This document shows, piece after piece, positions 4,630 to 52,153 of a stretch of DNA of 64,000 nt (position 1 is the first letter of the stretch; every line of letters begins with the position of its first letter). Made by a program: the position numbers and the translations under genes. The stretch comes from Syntrophobacterales bacterium (GTDB lineage: Bacteria > Desulfobacterota > Syntrophobacteria > BM002), in assembly GCA_050124835.1 (NCBI GenBank), contig JASFEM010000004.1, positions 3,588 to 67,587 on the forward strand. Reading direction: 5' to 3'. Below the pieces are notes generated by a model. That model was not told where the DNA came from, did no database searches, and worked only from the letters and a program-made list of their open reading frames with translations.

Positions 4630-5526
4630 ATGGTCTCAAGGAAAAAACGGACAAAACATCCCGAAGATCGACACCCCTTCTTCGATCAGCTGGAACAGCT
4701 TTGGCGCAACAAGACTGCAGTGGCCGGGATGGTTGCCATAACTTTTTTCGCTTTGACTGGCATTCTGGCGCCGGTCATGAGTCCCCACAACCCCATTGAT
4801 GCTTCCTTGTATGATCAGATTAAACCGCCAATCTGGTCAGAGGGGGGAAGCCTGAAGAACATTCTCGGCACCGATGACCTGGGCCGGGACATCCTTTCCC
4901 GCCTTATTTATGGCGCACGGGTATCGCTGCTCGTTGCCGTCGCCACCGTCGGAATCGGTGTTGTGTTCGGATCTTTCCTTGGTGCAATTGCCGGCTATTA
5001 CAAGGGTTTTTTGGACAATGTCATCATGCGTTTCATGGACATACTCCTGGCCTTCCCCCACATCCTCTTGGCCATTGTCATCATGGCCTATCTCGGGCCC
5101 GGGTTAACAAACGCTATGATTGCAATCGGTATAATCTATATACCTCGCTTTGCCCGTATAGTTCGGGCCTCTGTTCTGGAGGAGTGTGAGAAAGATTACG
5201 TTACCGCATCCAGGGCCGTTGGTGCGAGGGACTGGAGAATAATTTTCGTGTCCATTTTCCCTAACTGCCTTGCCCCTCTCATTGTTCAGACTACCCTTGG
5301 TTTTGCATCTGCGATTCTAGATGCCGCAGCCCTAGGTTTTCTGGGGCTTGGCGCCCAACCACCCACACCCGAGTGGGGCGCTATGATTGCCATGGGACGG
5401 TCCCACATCCTTAGGGCCTGGTGGGTGATGACCTTCCCCGGCATAGCTATCCTGCTTGCGGTTCTGGGATTCAACCTCTTTGGCGATGGTCTCAGGGATG
5501 CTTTGGACCCGAGGCTTAGGGATTAA
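4630..5526 (+). CDS. ABC transporter permease (DppC/OppC family)
   Basis: 298 aa with an N-terminal OppC-type region and TM helices. It is adjacent to the first permease. Confidence 0.8.
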   Translation: MVSRKKRTKHPEDRHPFFDQLEQLWRNKTAVAGMVAITFFALTGILAPVMSPHNPIDASLYDQIKPPIWSEGGSLKNILGTDDLGRDILSRLIYGARVSLLVAVATVGIGVVFGSFLGAIAGYYKGFLDNVIMRFMDILLAFPHILLAIVIMAYLGPGLTNAMIAIGIIYIPRFARIVRASVLEECEKDYVTASRAVGARDWRIIFVSIFPNCLAPLIVQTTLGFASAILDAAALGFLGLGAQPPTPEWGAMIAMGRSHILRAWWVMTFPGIAILLAVLGFNLFGDGLRDALDPRLRD

Positions 5527-5558
5527 ATTGAGTGTAAACTGGCCTGGGGCTTTGCCCC

Positions 5559-5677
5559 GATTGGAATATTGGAACAATGGAATACTGGAATGATGGATCA
5601 CAAGGGAAAAACATTAATATGATTCTTTGTAGTTTTGTCACCCAAGATTCCATGATTCCAACATTCCACTATTCCAA
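5559..5677. repeat. inverted pair of 8-nt tandem arrays (NNNTGGAA)x4, spacer, (TTCCANNN)x4, inside the ABC operon between the second permease and the first ATPase
   Basis: Forward array TATTGGAA CAATGGAA TACTGGAA TGATGG at 5559-5596. Its reverse complement TTCCATGA TTCCAACA TTCCACTA TTCCAA lies at 5648-5677. A short GGGGC-TTT-GCCCC hairpin sits just upstream. Confidence 0.75.
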
Positions 5678-5811
5678 ACGCAGCGCAATTAGAAGCGTCG
5701 TAAAAAAGACTCAAACCTCATTAAATTGTCGTGTTTCAGATACGTTTACGATGAATAAACTATTATTAATAGCGTTCAATTGCGCATTATCGCGCAATTG
5801 AGGGTCTACAA

Positions 5812-6792
5812 ATGAGCGACAATCACAACTTACTGGAAATAGAAAATCTGCGTACCTATTTCTATGTCCGTGGTCACGTTGCTAAAGCCGTTGATGACGT
5901 CGATCTGACCATCGCATCAGGTCAGACCCTCGGATTGGTAGGTGAATCCGGTTGTGGTAAGAGTGTCACCGCCCATTCCATCATCGGTCTTATCCCCGAC
6001 CCACCTGGCAAGATAGTGGGCGGCAGGATCCTCTTTGAAGGTGCAGATCTGCTCGGACTACCTGAAACAAAAATGAGAAAGATACGGGGTAATCAAATTT
6101 CCATGATTTTCCAGGAACCCATGACCTCGCTAAACCCAGTCTATTCTGTAGGCGACCAGGTAGCAGAGGTTATAAGGCTTCACCAGAACTTGTCCCGAAG
6201 CGAAATTCGCAACCGAGTTATCGAGATTTTCCGATTGGTGGGTATCCCCGCAGCTGAAAAGCGTATCAAAAACTATCCTCACCAGATGAGTGGCGGTATG
6301 CGCCAGCGGGTGATGATCGCCATGGCCCTGGCATGCAACCCCAAACTGATGATCGCCGATGAGCCCACAACCGCTTTAGATGTGACCATTCAAGCGCAAA
6401 TCTTGGATCTGATGAACAAATTGAAACAAGAAACTGGGGCTGCTATCCTATTCATTACGCACGACCTTGGTGTGATCGCCGAAATGGCCCAGCATGTGGC
6501 AGTGATGTACGCCGGCAAGGTCATGGAGTACGCTGAAGTGAAAACCCTCTTTGCTGAGGCCAAACACCCTTACACAGTAGGACTGTTGCAGTCTATCCCG
6601 GTTGTCGGGCGGGGCCGTCCGGACCGAAGGCTCAATGCCATCGCCGGCGTGGTGCCCTCCCTGCTCAACCTCCCCCCAGGCTGTTTGTTTAGTGACCGGT
6701 GTCAGGATGTTTTTCCTGACTGCCGTACTAGTGAGCCTCAGATGTACCAGGTTGGTGACAACCACTTCGCCCGGTGTTTGAAATATGTTTGA
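5812..6792 (+). CDS. ABC transporter ATP-binding protein (DppD/OppD family)
   Basis: Walker A GESGCGKS, signature MSGGMRQR, Walker [13 protein letters not shown] and a C-terminal oligopeptide-transporter extension are present. Confidence 0.85.
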
Positions 6793-20666: not shown

Positions 20667-20670
20667 CTTT

Positions 20671-20746
20671 AGATTGTGGATTGTAGATTGCGGATTGCAG
20701 ATTGTAGATTGTGGATTGCAGATTGTAGATTGTGGATTGCAGATGC
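20671..20746. repeat. long heptamer tandem array (RGATTGY)x about 11 between the convergent zur and GAF-HD-GYP genes
   Basis: AGATTGT GGATTGT AGATTGC GGATTGC AGATTGT AGATTGT GGATTGC ... Its translation on the minus strand produces the artefactual ICNPQSTICNPQST ORF. Confidence 0.85.
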
Positions 20747-25954: not shown

Positions 25955-26098
25955 ATTGGAATGGTGGAATAATGGAACAAAGGAATGATGGGAAAAGAGC
26001 GAAAAACTTCACAACTCATGATGCTCAACCGCTCCGTACATTCGATCTACGTACTTAAACCCATTATTCCAACATTCCAGCATTCCAGCATTCCAATA
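25955..26098. repeat. inverted pair of 8-nt tandem arrays (NNNTGGAA)x4-5, about 70-nt spacer, (NNNTTCCA)x4, same family as 5559-5677
   Basis: Forward array ATTGGAA TGGTGGAA TAATGGAA CAAAGGAA TGATGGG at 25955-25992. Reverse array TTATTCCA ACATTCCA GCATTCCA GCATTCCA at 26063-26094. Confidence 0.75.
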
Positions 26099-26396
26099 GC
26101 CCTAGGCTTGTGTTTGCAGCCAAGCCCACAACCTGCGGGACCGACCGGCTCAGAGTGACCAGGTTCTCCATGACTGATTAACTCCAAGAGATTCCGAATA
26201 TTTCGTGGAGTACCCAGACCAAATATCACTTTTTCTCTTGCCAGTTTTTCCGCCTTCTTGTAGCCTGAAATTAGCCCATTTTTTGCTCGCCAGCGCGAAT
26301 TTCATCCTGATTTTCTTTTGCTCTGATGGGCCTGCAATCCAGCATCTTGGACATTTTGGGCAACAAGTTTTAGTGTCCCTTTATGAGGACAACGAA

Positions 26397-28082
26397 ATGA
26401 AAGGCGAAGACAGGAAAAAGGAGCAACTCGAGGGGAAATCGGTGGAGTTGGTCCAGCATCCTGTGAAATCGGAGCACCCGAAAAGTGGATCCATGCAGGC
26501 TAATGAGCCGATTGCCAGCGCCAAAGACGAGTGGGAGCGAACCTTTAACATTATACCGGATCCAATAGCAATCATAGACCGGGACTATCGGATTACATGG
26601 GTAAACAGGGCAATGGCCGAGAGGTTGGGCATTGTTCCCCACGAGGCCGTAGGAATGACCTGTTACCAAAACATCCATGGAATGGAAAAACCGCCATCAT
26701 TCTGTCCCCACACCAAGTTGCTGGCCGACGGTAAGGAGCATACGGCTGAGATTCATGAAACGCGTTTGGGCGGTGATTTCCGCGTTAGTGTCTCGCCTCT
26801 CCGCACCCCTGATGGAAGCATTATCGGGAGTATCCATCTTGCCCGCGATATCACCGAAAGCAAGCAGGTGGAGGAGGAGTTGCGGAGGAGGAGTCACGAT
26901 CTTGGCGAGCGCCTAAAGGAATTGCATTGCCTTTTTGACGTTTCTAGACTGATCGAAAGGCAAGAAATAGCCCGGAGCGAGATATTTCAGGGGATCGTCA
27001 ACCTGATTCCCCCTGCCTGGCAATATCCGGAGATTACTTGTGCTCGTGTCATCCTGGGGGAACAGGAATTCAGAACTGCAAATTTCAGAGAAACCAATTG
27101 GAAACAAGTCAGAGACATTACTGTGCACGGTGAAGTACAGGGATCCTTGGAGGTCTGTTATCTGGATGAGAAACCAGAATGCGAAGAAGGGCCCTTCATG
27201 AAGGAGGAAAGGAGCCTGCTAAATGCCATTGCCGAGCGATTCGGAAGACTCATTGAGCGCGAGGAAGCAGAGGAGGCGCTCCAAGAAGCTTATGATCATT
27301 TAGAGATGCAGGTTGAACGACGTACCGCAGAGCTAGCAAAGGCTAATGAAGAGTTGCAGGTCGAAATAAATGAGCGCAAGCGAGTGGAAGAGGCTTTAAG
27401 AAAGAGTTCGGAAAAACTGGAATCTTTCGCTTACTCGGTTATGCACGACCTCAAGAGTCCCTCTGTTGGAATATATGGGCTTACAGAGCTTCTTAATAAA
27501 CACTACAAGGATGTTTTGGACGAAAGGGGCAGGAACTATTGCGAGCAAATCTTAAAGTCTGCGGTGCACCTTGCCGCTCTCATCGAAAAAATCAATGTTT
27601 ACATCACAACGAAAGAAGCTCCCTTAAATCTTGTGAAAAACAATGTAAAAGAGATTCTTGAGATCGTTAGAGACGAATTCTCACCGCGGCTGGCTGTTCG
27701 TCAAATTGAGTGGCATGAACCTGAAATTGTCCCGGAGGTCAAGGTAGACAAATTGTCGATGATAAGGGTTTTTAGAAATTTTGTGGACAATGCCCTGAAA
27801 TATGGTGGAGAAGATCTAAGCGAGATCAGAATTGGTCATCAAGAATTCGAAGATTTCCACGTTTTTTCTGTGAGCGATAACGGAGCTGGGCTCAAAGGGA
27901 CAGATTATGAAAGGCTTTTTGCACCTTTTCGCAGAGACGACGCCTCTAAAGTGATCGATGGGGCTGGCCTTGGGTTAGCCATTGTAAGTGAGATAGCGGA
28001 GCGCCATAGAGGCAGCGTCTGGGCGGAGCCTGGTGAGGTTAAGGGAACGACATTTCACATATCAGTGTCTAAGGATCTTTAA
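26397..28082 (+). CDS. PAS-domain sensor histidine kinase
   Basis: A PAS region (IAIIDRDYRITWVNRAMAERLG...) is followed by a middle sensory/coiled-coil region. HisKA H-box MHDLKSPSVGIYGLTELL and HATPase_c G-boxes ([15 protein letters not shown]) are present. The start is taken at MKGEDRKK with a GAGGA RBS. Confidence 0.75.
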   Translation: MKGEDRKKEQLEGKSVELVQHPVKSEHPKSGSMQANEPIASAKDEWERTFNIIPDPIAIIDRDYRITWVNRAMAERLGIVPHEAVGMTCYQNIHGMEKPPSFCPHTKLLADGKEHTAEIHETRLGGDFRVSVSPLRTPDGSIIGSIHLARDITESKQVEEELRRRSHDLGERLKELHCLFDVSRLIERQEIARSEIFQGIVNLIPPAWQYPEITCARVILGEQEFRTANFRETNWKQVRDITVHGEVQGSLEVCYLDEKPECEEGPFMKEERSLLNAIAERFGRLIEREEAEEALQEAYDHLEMQVERRTAELAKANEELQVEINERKRVEEALRKSSEKLESFAYSVMHDLKSPSVGIYGLTELLNKHYKDVLDERGRNYCEQILKSAVHLAALIEKINVYITTKEAPLNLVKNNVKEILEIVRDEFSPRLAVRQIEWHEPEIVPEVKVDKLSMIRVFRNFVDNALKYGGEDLSEIRIGHQEFEDFHVFSVSDNGAGLKGTDYERLFAPFRRDDASKVIDGAGLGLAIVSEIAERHRGSVWAEPGEVKGTTFHISVSKDL

Positions 28083-31583: not shown

Positions 31584-31630
31584 TTCCTGCACACGGTAGT
31601 CAGTTGGAGTAATGGAGCCCAACGACTTTA

Positions 31631-31738
31631 GATTTTAGAATGCAGATTTAAGATTTAAGAGCTTAGGACCTCATAGTAAGGAAAGCATGTAACCTCAATC
31701 TGGAATCTGCAATCTGAAGTCTGCAATCTGCAATCCTT
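31631..31738. repeat. composite element: forward heptamer array (AGATTNN)x4-5, 34-nt spacer, reverse array (CAATCTG)x6
   Basis: Forward AGATTTT AGAATGC AGATTTA AGATTTA at 31631-31663. Reverse CAATCTG GAATCTG CAATCTG AAGTCTG CAATCTG CAATCC at 31698-31738. It shares the left flank GTTGGAGTAATGGAG with the copy at 32684. Confidence 0.8.
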
Positions 31739-32584: not shown

Positions 32585-32683
32585 GCAAAGAATCCAGAAC
32601 AGGGACCTTTCTTTGAGCTGCGTCCAGAGCTAGTCTTTCCTTGGGGCGAGAGTCTGTTGGTGTAATGGAGTAAGGATCATTTC

Positions 32684-32763
32684 AGATTTTAGAATGCAGA
32701 TTGCAGATTTTTTTAACGAATTAAAAACAGCAACTTTAAAACAAAATCTGAAATCTACAATCC
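32684..32763. repeat. second copy of the composite element: forward (AGATTNN)x4, AT-rich spacer, reverse (AAATCTR)x3
   Basis: AGATTTT AGAATGC AGATTGC AGATTTT ... AAATCTG AAATCTA CAATCC. The flanks GTAATGGAG upstream and CAATCCT downstream are shared with 31631-31738. Confidence 0.8.
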
Positions 32764-52092: not shown

Positions 52093-52153
52093 TAAGGAAT
52101 TGAGGGATTGGGGGATTACGGAATTAATCAGTCAAGACTCTAATTCCTTAATT
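52093..52153. repeat. degenerate 8-nt array (NNGGRATT)x4 plus short inverted partner
   Basis: AAGGAATT GAGGGATT GGGGGATT ACGGAATT, then AATTCCTTAATT. It lies between the hydrolase and fabH. Confidence 0.55.

What the first reader, a model, noticed from the sequence alone, without database searches (positions are those of the whole stretch)
5541..5690. 8-nt TGGAA inverted arrays in the intergenic gap between the ABC permease and ATPase genes
A 285-bp gap in an otherwise tightly packed dpp/opp-type operon holds (NNNTGGAA)x4, a 50-nt spacer, then (TTCCANNN)x4. This is the same architecture as the heptamer composites, with an 8-nt unit. A near-identical family member is at 25955-26098 and a degenerate one at 52093-52153. 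An element inside an operon could act as an internal terminator or RNase site that decouples binding-protein and permease expression from ATPase expression, or as a protein-binding array.
Basis: seen in the sequence. Interest (0 to 1): 0.55.

Follow-up and report, generated by a model that had tools for sequence, protein, structure and literature searches.

The report
Mobile TGGAAT-octamer hairpin repeat in operon
The gap in this peptide-transporter operon holds one copy of a small non-coding repeat made of two facing arrays of the 8-base unit TGGAATRN; copies occur in several bacterial phyla, I found no description of it in Rfam or in the paper library I could search, and what recognises it is unknown.

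Summary
Window 5562-5676 holds five TGGAATRN units, a 35-nt centre and five NYATTCCA units. A second copy lies at 25957-26095. It has the same architecture but is only 64% identical, so it is not "near-identical". The array at 52093-52153 is a doubtful relative.

Orthologous dpp/opp operons (permease 89-91% identical) have 5-nt or 40-nt gaps at this junction. The roughly 245 nt at 5533-5777 is therefore an insertion. One relative carries a different heptamer-array composite at the same junction.

They come from MAGs labelled Desulfobacterota, Bacteroidota, Planctomycetota, Verrucomicrobiota, Kiritimatiellae and others. Near-identical copies sit in unrelated flanks, both within one MAG and between MAGs. 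Copies are intergenic, mostly downstream of genes, and match no Rfam family.

The two variable unit positions show no compensatory pairing between the arms. Conservation is therefore of the motif, not of the helix.

Best reading: a REPIN/MITE-like non-autonomous mobile element. Its arms are probably arrays of a recognition site for an unidentified protein. In the operon transcript it should fold into a strong interrupted hairpin.

It has no intrinsic-terminator or promoter features. The closest description is the paired octa/heptanucleotide arrays noted in the Geobacter metallireducens genome paper.

The parts
4630..5526 (+). DppC/OppC-type ABC permease gene upstream of the element (context)
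   Evidence: ORF list. Pfam BPD_transp_1 and OppC_N. NCBI name 'ABC transporter permease subunit [Syntrophobacterales bacterium]'.
5526..5532 (+). AATTGAG, left copy of an imperfect direct repeat (right copy AATTGCG at 5778-5784) bounding the inserted segment. It may be a target duplication, or it may come from insertion next to the native hairpin.
   Evidence: the repeat finder family D3. Alignment with empty-site orthologs. The independent insert in L347 is likewise bounded by CAATTGAA ... CAATTGAG. Only two cases, so this is suggestive.
5533..5777 (+). Segment absent from orthologous operons: the insertion, about 245 nt
   Evidence: Orthologs with permease 89-91% identical have 5-nt (L237, L238, L348) or 40-nt (L233-L236) gaps.
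5546..5558 (+). Small GC hairpin GGGGC-TTT-GCCCC, present on one side only; matches the family's 5' module
   Evidence: Profile HMM of the 5' module hits 5547-5567 (E = 0.0075 within the window; the hit includes the first unit). In 24 of 126 elements a GC-TTY-GC core lies on one side and never on both.
5562..5601 (+). Left arm: four TGGAATRN units plus the degenerate inner unit TGGATCAC
5602..5636 (+). Variable centre, purine-rich 5' half and pyrimidine-rich 3' half, which extends the hairpin
   Evidence: Family centres measure 17-84 nt (median 56), vary in sequence and are not unusually structured (median z = -0.72).
5637..5676 (+). Right arm: degenerate inner unit GTCACCCA plus four NYATTCCA units (reverse complement of TGGAATRN)
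5678..5777 (+). 3' part of the inserted segment, of unknown relationship. It resembles the family's 3' module by eye, but the match is not significant.
   Evidence: Absent from orthologs. The 3'-module HMM gives no significant hit here. No significant similarity to the L347 or L241 inserts.
5776..5801 (+). Native perfect hairpin TCAATTGCGC-ATTATC-GCGCAATTGA just before the ATPase ribosome-binding site. Present without the element in relatives as CAATTGAGC-ATTATC-GCTCAATTG; the A>C and T>G changes compensate each other.
   Evidence: the repeat finder I10. Alignments.
5812..6792 (+). DppD/OppD-type ABC ATPase gene downstream (context)
25957..26095 (.). Second family member: TGGAATGG/TGGAATAA/TGGAACAA/AGGAATGA/TGGGAAAA, a longer centre, then ACCCA and four TTCCA units. 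It lies between a pilin-like gene on the minus strand and a PAS histidine kinase gene on the plus strand.
   Evidence: Whether it is an insertion could not be resolved, because synteny is broken in the 73% ortholog and contigs are cut in the 90% ortholog.
52093..52153 (+). Doubtful relative: four GGRATTNN units at 8-nt spacing plus one complementary unit, forming an 11-bp inverted repeat ATTAAGGAATT/AATTCCTTAAT
   Evidence: Not matched by the family pattern.

Best explanation
The element is one copy of a non-autonomous, non-coding mobile repeat of the REPIN/MITE kind. Its core is a composite: 3-6 head-to-tail TGGAA-K-R-N octamers, an inner TGGGT, a variable centre of about 35-60 nt, then ACCCA and the same octamers inverted. 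In a Desulfobacterales-centred subfamily the core carries a one-sided 5' hairpin module and a 76-nt 3' module.

Shown: it entered the dppC-dppD junction of this Syntrophobacterales lineage next to a native hairpin, and relatives lack it. Family members are multi-copy, and near-identical copies lie in unrelated flanks.

Inferred: the six constant positions of each unit are a recognition site, read many times over by a protein supplied in trans. That protein could be the mobilising enzyme or a host DNA/RNA-binding protein. This would explain why the motif, its 8-nt spacing and its orientation are kept while the two spacer positions and the centre drift.

Inferred consequence here: the element is transcribed with the operon and folds into a rod of 6-bp helices separated by 2x2 internal loops (about -37 kcal/mol for the composite alone). 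By analogy with REP and ERIC elements, such a structure could block 3'-to-5' exonucleases or attract RNase III or RNase E. That would give the upstream (binding protein and permease) and downstream (ATPase) segments different stability. It is not a canonical intrinsic terminator.
For: Insertion. Orthologous operons have 5-nt or 40-nt gaps against 285 nt here. The same junction carries an unrelated heptamer composite in L347 and L241, so it is a hot spot.

Family. The composite pattern has 30 specified bases. My own estimate of the chance expectation in 596 Gb is about 3e-5. Up to 6 loci fell in one MAG, and 10 loci were found in viral contigs.

Mobility. L116 and L215, from different MAGs, are 95.5% identical over 221 nt with unrelated flanks. 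L113 and L222, from the same MAG, are 96.5% identical. L180/L186 (94%) and L157/L194 (90%) share only the composite.

Motif-level constraint. Positions the search pattern did not fix are still conserved: position 6 is T in 67% of units and position 7 is a purine in 93%. Position 7 is a purine in 94-95% of units in the Desulfobacterota-labelled, PVC and other/unclear groups, and in 75% in the Bacteroidota group. Positions 7 and 8 pair no better in the native register than in a register shifted by one unit (0.39 vs 0.43 and 0.28 vs 0.23). RNAalifold on 20 copies finds no compensatory pairs. Arrays are nearly always paired in the order TGGAA...TTCCA (288 paired against 11 orphan; 10 loci against 1 in viral contigs).

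Context resembles that of REPs: 56 between tandem genes, 14 between convergent genes, 8 between divergent genes, and close to upstream stop codons (compare PMC3733652).

No coding capacity and no Rfam family. The RNA fold has z = -5.5.
Against: No transposase or other partner protein was found: no protein family recurs within 2.5 kb of 125 copies. There is no target-site duplication and no extended palindrome at the arm ends across the family. The 7-8-bp direct repeats at this junction rest on two alleles only.

No sibling of this particular copy was found: the metagenome scan with its centre 20-mer returned only the same locus. Its 3' 100 nt do not significantly match the family's 3' module.

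The search pattern itself required three perfect TGGAA units per arm, so conservation of positions 1-5 is partly ascertainment. An orthologously retained copy (L140/L211) diverges about as fast as its flanks, so in-place purifying selection is not shown.

Any effect on operon expression is pure inference; no transcript data were available.
Confidence: 0.6

Rival explanations
1. The arrays are chromosomal binding sites for a nucleoid-associated or global regulatory protein acting on double-stranded DNA, as was proposed for the analogous paired arrays of Geobacter metallireducens. On this view spread and retention reflect host function rather than selfish mobility. One dimer would bind each 8-bp unit, as in MetJ metbox arrays or the omega-repressor heptad arrays (both recalled from my own knowledge).
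For: Six of eight positions are constant, with no compensatory pattern between the arms. Spacing and head-to-tail order are fixed, and only the facing orientation occurs. The same unit is found in several phyla. Precedent for the idea: PMC2700814.
Against: Only 8 of 78 resolved contexts lie between divergent genes, where promoters are found. Most copies lie downstream of genes or between convergent genes. Near-identical copies in unrelated flanks show transposition-like spread. No candidate protein was identified. Close relatives do without the site at this junction.
Confidence: 0.2
2. It is a cis-regulatory RNA device selected for this operon: an internal terminator or attenuator, or a dedicated RNase processing site that sets the ratio of binding protein and permease to ATPase.
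For: It lies inside the operon on the coding strand, with a very stable predicted hairpin. The native ribosome-binding site and hairpin of the ATPase gene are kept intact downstream. The element is fixed and invariant in 7 assemblies.
Against: No T-tract and no terminator or promoter consensus in the gap. The family flanks are mostly not T-rich. The same element type lies next to unrelated genes, in both orientations. Orthologous operons work with a 5-nt gap. No covariation supports a selected RNA fold.
Confidence: 0.12
3. It is a locally generated simple-sequence structure with no family relationship: replication slippage built tandem octamers on both sides of a pre-existing palindrome, and similar arrays elsewhere are convergent.
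For: Unit numbers on the two arms are usually equal or differ by one. Other unit types (heptamers) build the same architecture in this genome and in relatives.
Against: Adjacent units share the same 3-nt tail in only 12.6% of cases against 7% by chance, so the arrays are not recent slippage products. There is no unit-number polymorphism among 7 assemblies. Whole elements including their centres are copied to unrelated loci. The same unit, with a purine at position 7, recurs across phyla.
Confidence: 0.05

Closest known systems
Paired tandem octa/heptanucleotide arrays of Geobacter metallireducens (Gmet_I classes 1-3; Aklujkar et al. 2009, PMC2700814)
   Same: Two arrays of 3-5 tandem 7-9-nt units on opposite strands, a variable distance apart (about 100 nt in the class 3 examples). 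They are intergenic and present in tens of copies per genome. Several unit families coexist in one genome.
   Different: The units differ (GTTGCTYN, TCTCCGTS[Y], MTYCTGA). No TGGAAT arrays occur in that paper's supplements. Those sets were reported as unique to one species, whereas TGGAAT composites occur in MAGs of several phyla. They were interpreted, without a test, as IHF/HU sites. IS110-family and IS481-family elements sit between or beside some pairs there; nothing like that is seen here.
REP sequences and REPINs (Bertels and Rainey 2011, PMC3116915; Di Nocera et al. 2013, PMC3733652)
   Same: Short non-coding repeats in inverted pairs with a spacer, forming hairpins in single-stranded DNA or mRNA. 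They are multi-copy, lie mostly downstream of genes between tandem or convergent ORFs, are non-autonomous, and show within-genome copies at new loci.
   Different: Each REP is itself a 20-40-bp imperfect palindrome with a GTAG or CGTC tag. Here each arm is a tandem array of a non-palindromic octamer with no such tag. No RAYT gene was found nearby. REP families are usually lineage-specific, whereas this unit is shared across phyla.
Modular or transcribed intergenic repeats such as pneumococcal BOX, enterobacterial ERIC and Neisseria Correia elements (from my own knowledge)
   Same: Modular build with a variable number of internal units (BOX). Insertion inside operons, with effects on mRNA segment stability through RNase E or RNase III (ERIC, Correia). 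Strong hairpins in transcripts.
   Different: There is no sequence relationship. Those elements have defined terminal inverted repeats and TA or other target duplications (Correia), or 45-nt boxB units; none is built from octamer arrays.
Operator arrays read by ribbon-helix-helix proteins: MetJ 8-bp metboxes and omega-repressor 7-bp heptads (from my own knowledge)
   Same: Contiguous 7-8-bp units, each bound by one dimer, in direct or inverted arrays. This is the only well-understood way of reading DNA with an 8-bp period.
   Different: Those arrays lie at promoters and are few per genome. Nothing here links the element to such a protein. This is an analogy of mechanism only.

Membership tests
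REP / REPIN | The repeat unit is a 20-40-bp imperfect palindrome | tested here: not met
   Each arm is a head-to-tail array of TGGAATRN and is not self-complementary.
REP / REPIN | Unpaired GTAG or CGTC tag at one end of each unit (PMC3733652) | tested here: not met
   Arm ends read (C)AATTGGAAT with no tag. A GTAG occurs only inside the subfamily's 3' module (GTTGTAGAA).
REP / REPIN | Inverted doublets with a spacer that form a hairpin; doublets far outnumber singlets | tested here: met
   288 paired against 11 orphan arrays. Fold z-scores of -5.5 and -6.7.
REP / REPIN | A cognate RAYT (Y1 transposase) gene in the genome, flanked by the repeats | tested here: inconclusive
   No recurrent protein family within 2.5 kb of 125 copies. 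Whole genomes could not be searched.
REP / REPIN | Extragenic position, mainly downstream of genes between tandem or convergent ORFs | tested here: met
   56 tandem, 14 convergent and 8 divergent contexts, using heuristic ORF calls.
Classical MITE (derived from a DDE transposon) | Terminal inverted repeats flanked by a target-site duplication of fixed length | tested here: inconclusive
   The arms are inverted, but no duplication exceeds the shuffled control at the arm ends. At this junction two independent inserts are bounded by 7-8-bp imperfect direct repeats. In the modular subfamily a TTAG-like tetranucleotide lies at the left boundary, and several right ends also read TTAG, TTAA or TTAC; these could be part of the element.
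Classical MITE (derived from a DDE transposon) | A related autonomous element with the same ends around a transposase gene | tested here: inconclusive
   No arrays were found flanking a gene in about 1 Mb of loci and no recurrent neighbour protein. The collections could not be scanned with kilobase-sized gaps.
Classical MITE (derived from a DDE transposon) | Presence/absence polymorphism, and near-identical copies at different loci | tested here: met
Gmet_I-type paired tandem-repeat sites (PMC2700814) | Two arrays of 3-5 tandem 7-9-nt units on opposite strands, a variable distance apart, multi-copy and intergenic | tested here: met
   compared with the published description. This is an architectural class, not a sequence family: the units differ and TGGAAT is absent from that paper's files.
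Intrinsic (Rho-independent) terminator | GC-rich stem-loop followed directly by a T-tract | tested here: not met
   No sites in 5300-6000. 22% of family flanks are T-rich against 10% background.
Any Rfam 15 RNA family | Score at or above the family's gathering threshold | tested here: not met
   No hits in the window at gathering level. Only sub-threshold plant microRNA hairpin look-alikes in the element and in a canonical copy.
Structured non-coding RNA (generic) | Base pairs maintained by compensatory changes | tested here: not met
   0 of 20 consensus pairs show a double change. The variable positions pair no better than in a shifted register. The small 5' hairpin shows a single compensatory variant, CGCGC/GCGCG in L183.

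The most novel reading that the evidence does not exclude
The TGGAA-K-R-N octamer array may be the binding code of a dedicated, still unidentified protein that is shared by Desulfobacterota, the PVC group, Bacteroidota and other phyla. That protein might be a transposase or recombinase, or a ribbon-helix-helix-like array binder. On this reading the 'tandem-oligonucleotide hairpins' form a distinct superfamily of miniature mobile elements with interchangeable unit types (octamer TGGAATRN; heptamers such as GTTATNN and AGATTGC; the Geobacter classes). They would use a shared insertion route that targets small hairpins at gene ends.
Probability: 0.3. Interest if true: 0.7.

Novelty: new variant of a known kind. 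Interest (0 to 1): 0.5.

Why it matters
Small intergenic repeats such as REP, REPIN, BOX, ERIC and Correia shape operon expression and genome plasticity. They are known almost entirely from cultured Proteobacteria, Firmicutes and cyanobacteria. This is a compact element from uncultured sediment bacteria whose defining motif, spacing and orientation are kept across phyla while everything else varies. That pattern points to a conserved trans-acting reader that nobody has named.

If the element proves to be only a selfish passenger, the finding is an ordinary though undescribed repeat family.

Tried and rejected
1. Cyanobacterial origin (STRR or HIP1): HIP1 is not enriched, and the proteins are named Syntrophobacterales.

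2. Rfam: no family matches.

The pattern of four TGGAAN3 units alone is too unspecific, giving 107 viral loci, most of them probably unrelated tandem repeats (not examined).

4. The 3' module as an outward promoter or 5'-UTR element. By eye the downstream genes often looked co-oriented, but the count is 14 co-oriented against 10 opposed and the hexamer spacing is poor. Rejected.

5. Sigma-54 promoter in the GATGGCAC...TGCCAC hairpin: the GG-to-GC spacing is inconsistent (read). Rejected.

6. Similarity of GTTGTAGAAATT to the Cas12a repeat, or to an omega-RNA: a resemblance from memory only. No associated protein was found. Dropped.

7. CsrA sponge: the GGA motifs would be sequestered by the complementary arm, and from my own knowledge Bacteroidota carriers generally lack CsrA. 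Dropped.

8. Eyeball match of window 5728-5752 to the family's 3' module: not significant by HMM.

9. Window insert nested in a relic of the L347 heptamer composite: local alignments score at shuffle level. Rejected.

10. Siblings of this copy: the metagenome scan with the centre 20-mer returned only the same locus, plus unrelated AT-rich gut contigs.

11. Insertion status of copy 2: synteny is broken in the 73% ortholog and contigs are cut in the 90% ortholog. Unresolved.

12. Plasmid collection BLAST of the window insert and of a canonical copy: no match.

13. Literature searches by exact sequence found only unrelated primers.

14. Unit-number (phase) variation among strains: none seen.

Full report
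**1. The observation**

The gap between the permease gene (4630-5526) and the ATPase gene (5812-6792) is 285 nt. Pfam confirms a dpp/opp-type operon: SBP_bac_5, two BPD_transp_1 permeases, two ABC_tran/oligo_HPY ATPases, then a class-V aminotransferase.

The gap contains TGGAATAT, TGGAACAA, TGGAATAC, TGGAATGA and TGGATCAC at 5562-5601. A 35-nt centre follows, then GTCACCCA, AGATTCCA, TGATTCCA, ACATTCCA and CTATTCCA at 5637-5676. The three-unit pattern with up to two mismatches occurs 13 times in the window against 0.18 expected, and 12 of those matches lie in two composites.

Folded as RNA, the gap gives -84.6 kcal/mol with z = -5.5. The composite alone gives about -37 kcal/mol. Seven independent assemblies carry the identical sequence apart from one SNP at 5734. 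The feature is therefore real and stable, with no unit-number variation.

The second copy (25957-26095) shares unit and architecture but is only 64% identical. It scores 62% against its own reverse complement, so the similarity lies in the arms. The third site (52093-52153) has four GGRATTNN units and a single complementary unit. It may be related, but that is not shown.

**2. It is an insertion at a hot spot**

The exact permease protein occurs on contigs named Syntrophobacterales bacterium (MAG), all with the same gap. Orthologous operons whose permease is 89-91% identical show three other states:
- a 5-nt gap (L237, L238, L348);
- a 40-nt gap holding only the hairpin CAATTGAGC-ATTATC-GCTCAATTG (L233-L236);
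- in L347, a 191-nt gap.

The L347 gap holds a different composite. Its left arm is GTTATCG GTTATCA GTTATTG GTTATTC and its right arm is TGGTAAC GAGTAAC GAATAAC. L241 carries a relative of that heptamer composite (local score 54 against 15.7 for shuffles). The window's insert is not significantly similar to either.

Two unrelated array-hairpin elements have therefore entered the same junction. Both lie just 5' of the native hairpin, which the window keeps as TCAATTGCGC-ATTATC-GCGCAATTGA (5776-5801) with a compensating A>C / T>G pair.

Both inserts are bounded by imperfect direct repeats: AATTGAG ... AATTGCG in the window and CAATTGAA ... CAATTGAG in L347. This could be a 7-8-bp target duplication or a preference for this hairpin. 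Two cases do not decide it. The inserted segment is about 245 nt (5533-5777), roughly twice the length of the arrays.

**3. The family**

The pattern specifies 30 bases, and my estimate of the chance expectation is about 3e-5.

The records are MAGs. Most are labelled Desulfobacterales, Desulfobacteraceae, Syntrophaceae or Thermodesulfobacteriota. Others are labelled Bacteroidota, Planctomycetota, Verrucomicrobiota, Kiritimatiellae, Lentisphaerae, Calditrichia, Acidobacteria, Gemmatimonadaceae and Nitrospinaceae. Up to six loci come from a single MAG.

In 126 elements the pooled unit is T-G-G-A-A, then T (67%), then a purine (93%), then any base. Arms hold 3-6 units, most often 4, and the two arms differ by at most one unit in 100 of 126 elements. 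The arms end inward with TGGGT ... ACCCA. The centre measures 17-84 nt (median 56), varies in sequence and is not unusually structured.

The search pattern did not fix positions 6 and 7, so their conservation is not ascertainment. Position 7 is a purine in 94-95% of units in the Desulfobacterota-labelled, PVC and other/unclear groups, and in 75% in Bacteroidota. Position 6 shifts from T to G in the GC-rich PVC genomes.

Arrays are almost always paired in the order TGGAA...TTCCA (288 paired against 11 orphan). In viral contigs the facing order gives 10 loci and the reverse order gives 1, which is an unrelated exact repeat.

**4. Motif, not helix**

If the hairpin itself were under selection, the two variable positions of each unit should co-vary with the unit they face. 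They do not. Watson-Crick pairing at positions 7 and 8 is 0.39 and 0.28 in the native register, against 0.43 and 0.23 when the partner is shifted by one unit.

RNAalifold on 20 copies of the best-conserved subfamily finds only the arm pairs, and none shows a compensatory change. Adjacent units share a tail only slightly more often than chance (12.6% against 7%), so the arrays are not fresh slippage products.

What is conserved is the hexamer, its 8-nt spacing and its orientation. That is what arrays of a protein recognition site look like. The hairpin follows automatically from placing two such arrays face to face.

**5. A modular subfamily, and mobility**

About a fifth of the copies (24 of the 126 elements in the flank clustering; 26 in the later HMM search), including one from a MAG labelled Acidobacteria, carry extra modules.
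- On one side only there is a roughly 24-nt module: TTAG, then GGGGC-TTC-GCCCC or GTTCGC-TTC-GCTCAC, then AAT.
- On the other side there is a roughly 76-nt module ending in the strongly conserved block GTTGTAGAAATTCCGAGACGTTTAATTA.

Profile HMMs of the two modules find them almost only next to composites (26 of 27 hits and 28 of 30 hits). The 5' core never occurs on both sides. One exception, L116 6449-6544, joins the 5' module, a single array of five TGGAGTRN units and the distal 3' module. The two types of 5' module are found with the same 3' module. The parts therefore recombine.

The window copy has the 5' hairpin (GGGGC-TTT-GCCCC at 5546-5558; HMM E = 0.0075). It has no significant match to the 3' module.

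Direct evidence of movement:
- L116 and L215, from different MAGs, are 95.5% identical over 221 nt with unrelated flanks.
- L113 and L222, from one MAG, are 96.5% identical at different loci.
- L180/L186 (94%) and L157/L194 (90%) share the composite and only a few flanking bases.

A copy can also persist at an orthologous locus. In L140/L211 it diverges about as fast as its flanks.

**6. Context, and what it is not**

With heuristic ORF calls, 56 copies lie between tandem genes, 14 between convergent genes and 8 between divergent genes. In convergent pairs the element nearly fills the gap. The element tends to sit close to the upstream stop codon. This is the distribution reported for REPs (PMC3733652).

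The modular copies face the downstream gene in 14 cases and oppose it in 10, so they are not promoter or leader elements. The window gap has no sigma-70-like promoter and no terminator-like site. Only 22% of family flanks are T-rich, against 10% background.

No Rfam family matches. No protein family recurs near the copies. No target duplication appears at the arm ends across the family. The plasmid collection has no match.

**7. Literature**

The closest description I found is in the Geobacter metallireducens genome paper (PMC2700814). It lists 24 pairs of sites with four tandem octanucleotides (GTTGCTYN), 21 pairs with three TCTCCGTS[Y] repeats and 8 pairs with five MTYCTGA heptanucleotides. 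The members of each pair lie on opposite strands at a variable distance. The authors interpreted them, without a test, as IHF/HU "global regulator binding sites".

In that paper, IS110-family (ISGme8) and IS481-family (ISGme9) transposase genes sit between or beside some pairs. TGGAAT arrays do not occur in that paper's files. Exact-sequence searches of the library found nothing relevant.

REPINs (PMC3116915) are the nearest mechanistic model. The defining REP features, a palindromic unit and a GTAG or CGTC tag, are not met here, and the RAYT link could not be resolved with these tools.

**8. Most likely mechanism**

Shown: this is a non-coding, multi-copy, mobile, modular repeat, and in this lineage it inserted into the operon.

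Inferred: the arms are arrays of a recognition site for a protein supplied in trans. That protein could be the mobilising enzyme or a host binder, and it keeps motif, spacing and orientation constant across phyla. In the operon transcript the element forms a rod of 6-bp helices with regular 2x2 loops. Such a rod could act as an exonuclease barrier or an RNase III/E substrate, uncoupling the upstream and downstream mRNA segments as REP and ERIC elements do (my own knowledge).

Rivals are a host DNA-binding array with a nucleoid or regulatory role (0.2), a dedicated operon regulator (0.12), and local slippage with convergence (0.05).

**9. Verdict**

It is a member of a cross-phylum repeat family that I could not find described in Rfam or in the searchable literature. 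Its architecture was noted once before and never explained.

It is a new variant of a known kind, the small intergenic mobile repeats. The open and interesting question is what reads the octamer. Interest is 0.5.

Noticed in passing
window 31631-31738 and 32680-32762: Two 'heptamer composites' with the same architecture: (AGATTKN)n, a centre, then (NMAATCT)n. Both are preceded by a shared motif, TTGGAGTAATGGAG (31604-31617) and TTGGTGTAATGGAG (32657-32670), that looks like two TGGAGTAA-type octamer units.
   Followed up: partly
window 20670-20744: A one-armed array of about 10.7 heptamers (TAGATTG / TGGATTG / CGGATTG / CAGATTG) with a 21-nt super-period and no inverted partner nearby.
   Followed up: no
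L347 2106-2298 and L241 3406-3589: Relatives carry a GTTATNN / NNNTAAC heptamer composite at exactly the dppC-dppD junction where the window has the TGGAAT element. In L347 it is preceded by a second CAATTGA...TCAATTG hairpin. The junction is therefore a repeated insertion target.
   Followed up: yes
L116 6440-6560: A half-element: the 5' module, five TGGAGTRN units on one strand only, then the distal 3' module abutting the start of an ORF (from its N-terminal sequence I took it for a valyl-tRNA synthetase; not checked). It shows that the modules can combine with a different unit and without a second arm.
   Followed up: partly
window 26256-26282; L343 1-30; L346 2340-2365: The block TCTTGTAGCCTGAAATTAGCCCATTT, about 115 nt upstream of the PAS histidine kinase start, is conserved in orthologs of 90% and 73% protein identity while the surrounding sequence diverges. 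It is probably a regulatory site of that gene.
   Followed up: no
window 26205-28082: The mechanical ORF over-extends the histidine kinase. All homologs are 561 aa, which places the real start near 26397 (ATG in 'aacgaaATGaaagg').
   Followed up: partly
window 5776-5801 compared with L233 3415-3438: The native hairpin before the ATPase gene shows a compensatory double change (CAATTGAGC/GCTCAATTG to CAATTGCGC/GCGCAATTG). This suggests the hairpin itself is functional. It is absent from the 5-nt-gap relatives.
   Followed up: partly
L343, L344 and L345, position 1: Three Logan contigs from three different sequencing runs that carry the 90% histidine kinase ortholog each have only 134 nt upstream of the gene; for L344 and L345 this is certainly a contig end, and L343 starts at the same sequence. 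The point lies about 160 nt downstream of where copy 2 sits in the window, as would be expected if a repeat upstream disrupts assembly.
   Followed up: no
L136 about 1595-1608: Directly after the 3' end of one modular element the sequence reads ACTCGCTTC. This resembles the start of another 5' module and may indicate tandem elements.
   Followed up: no
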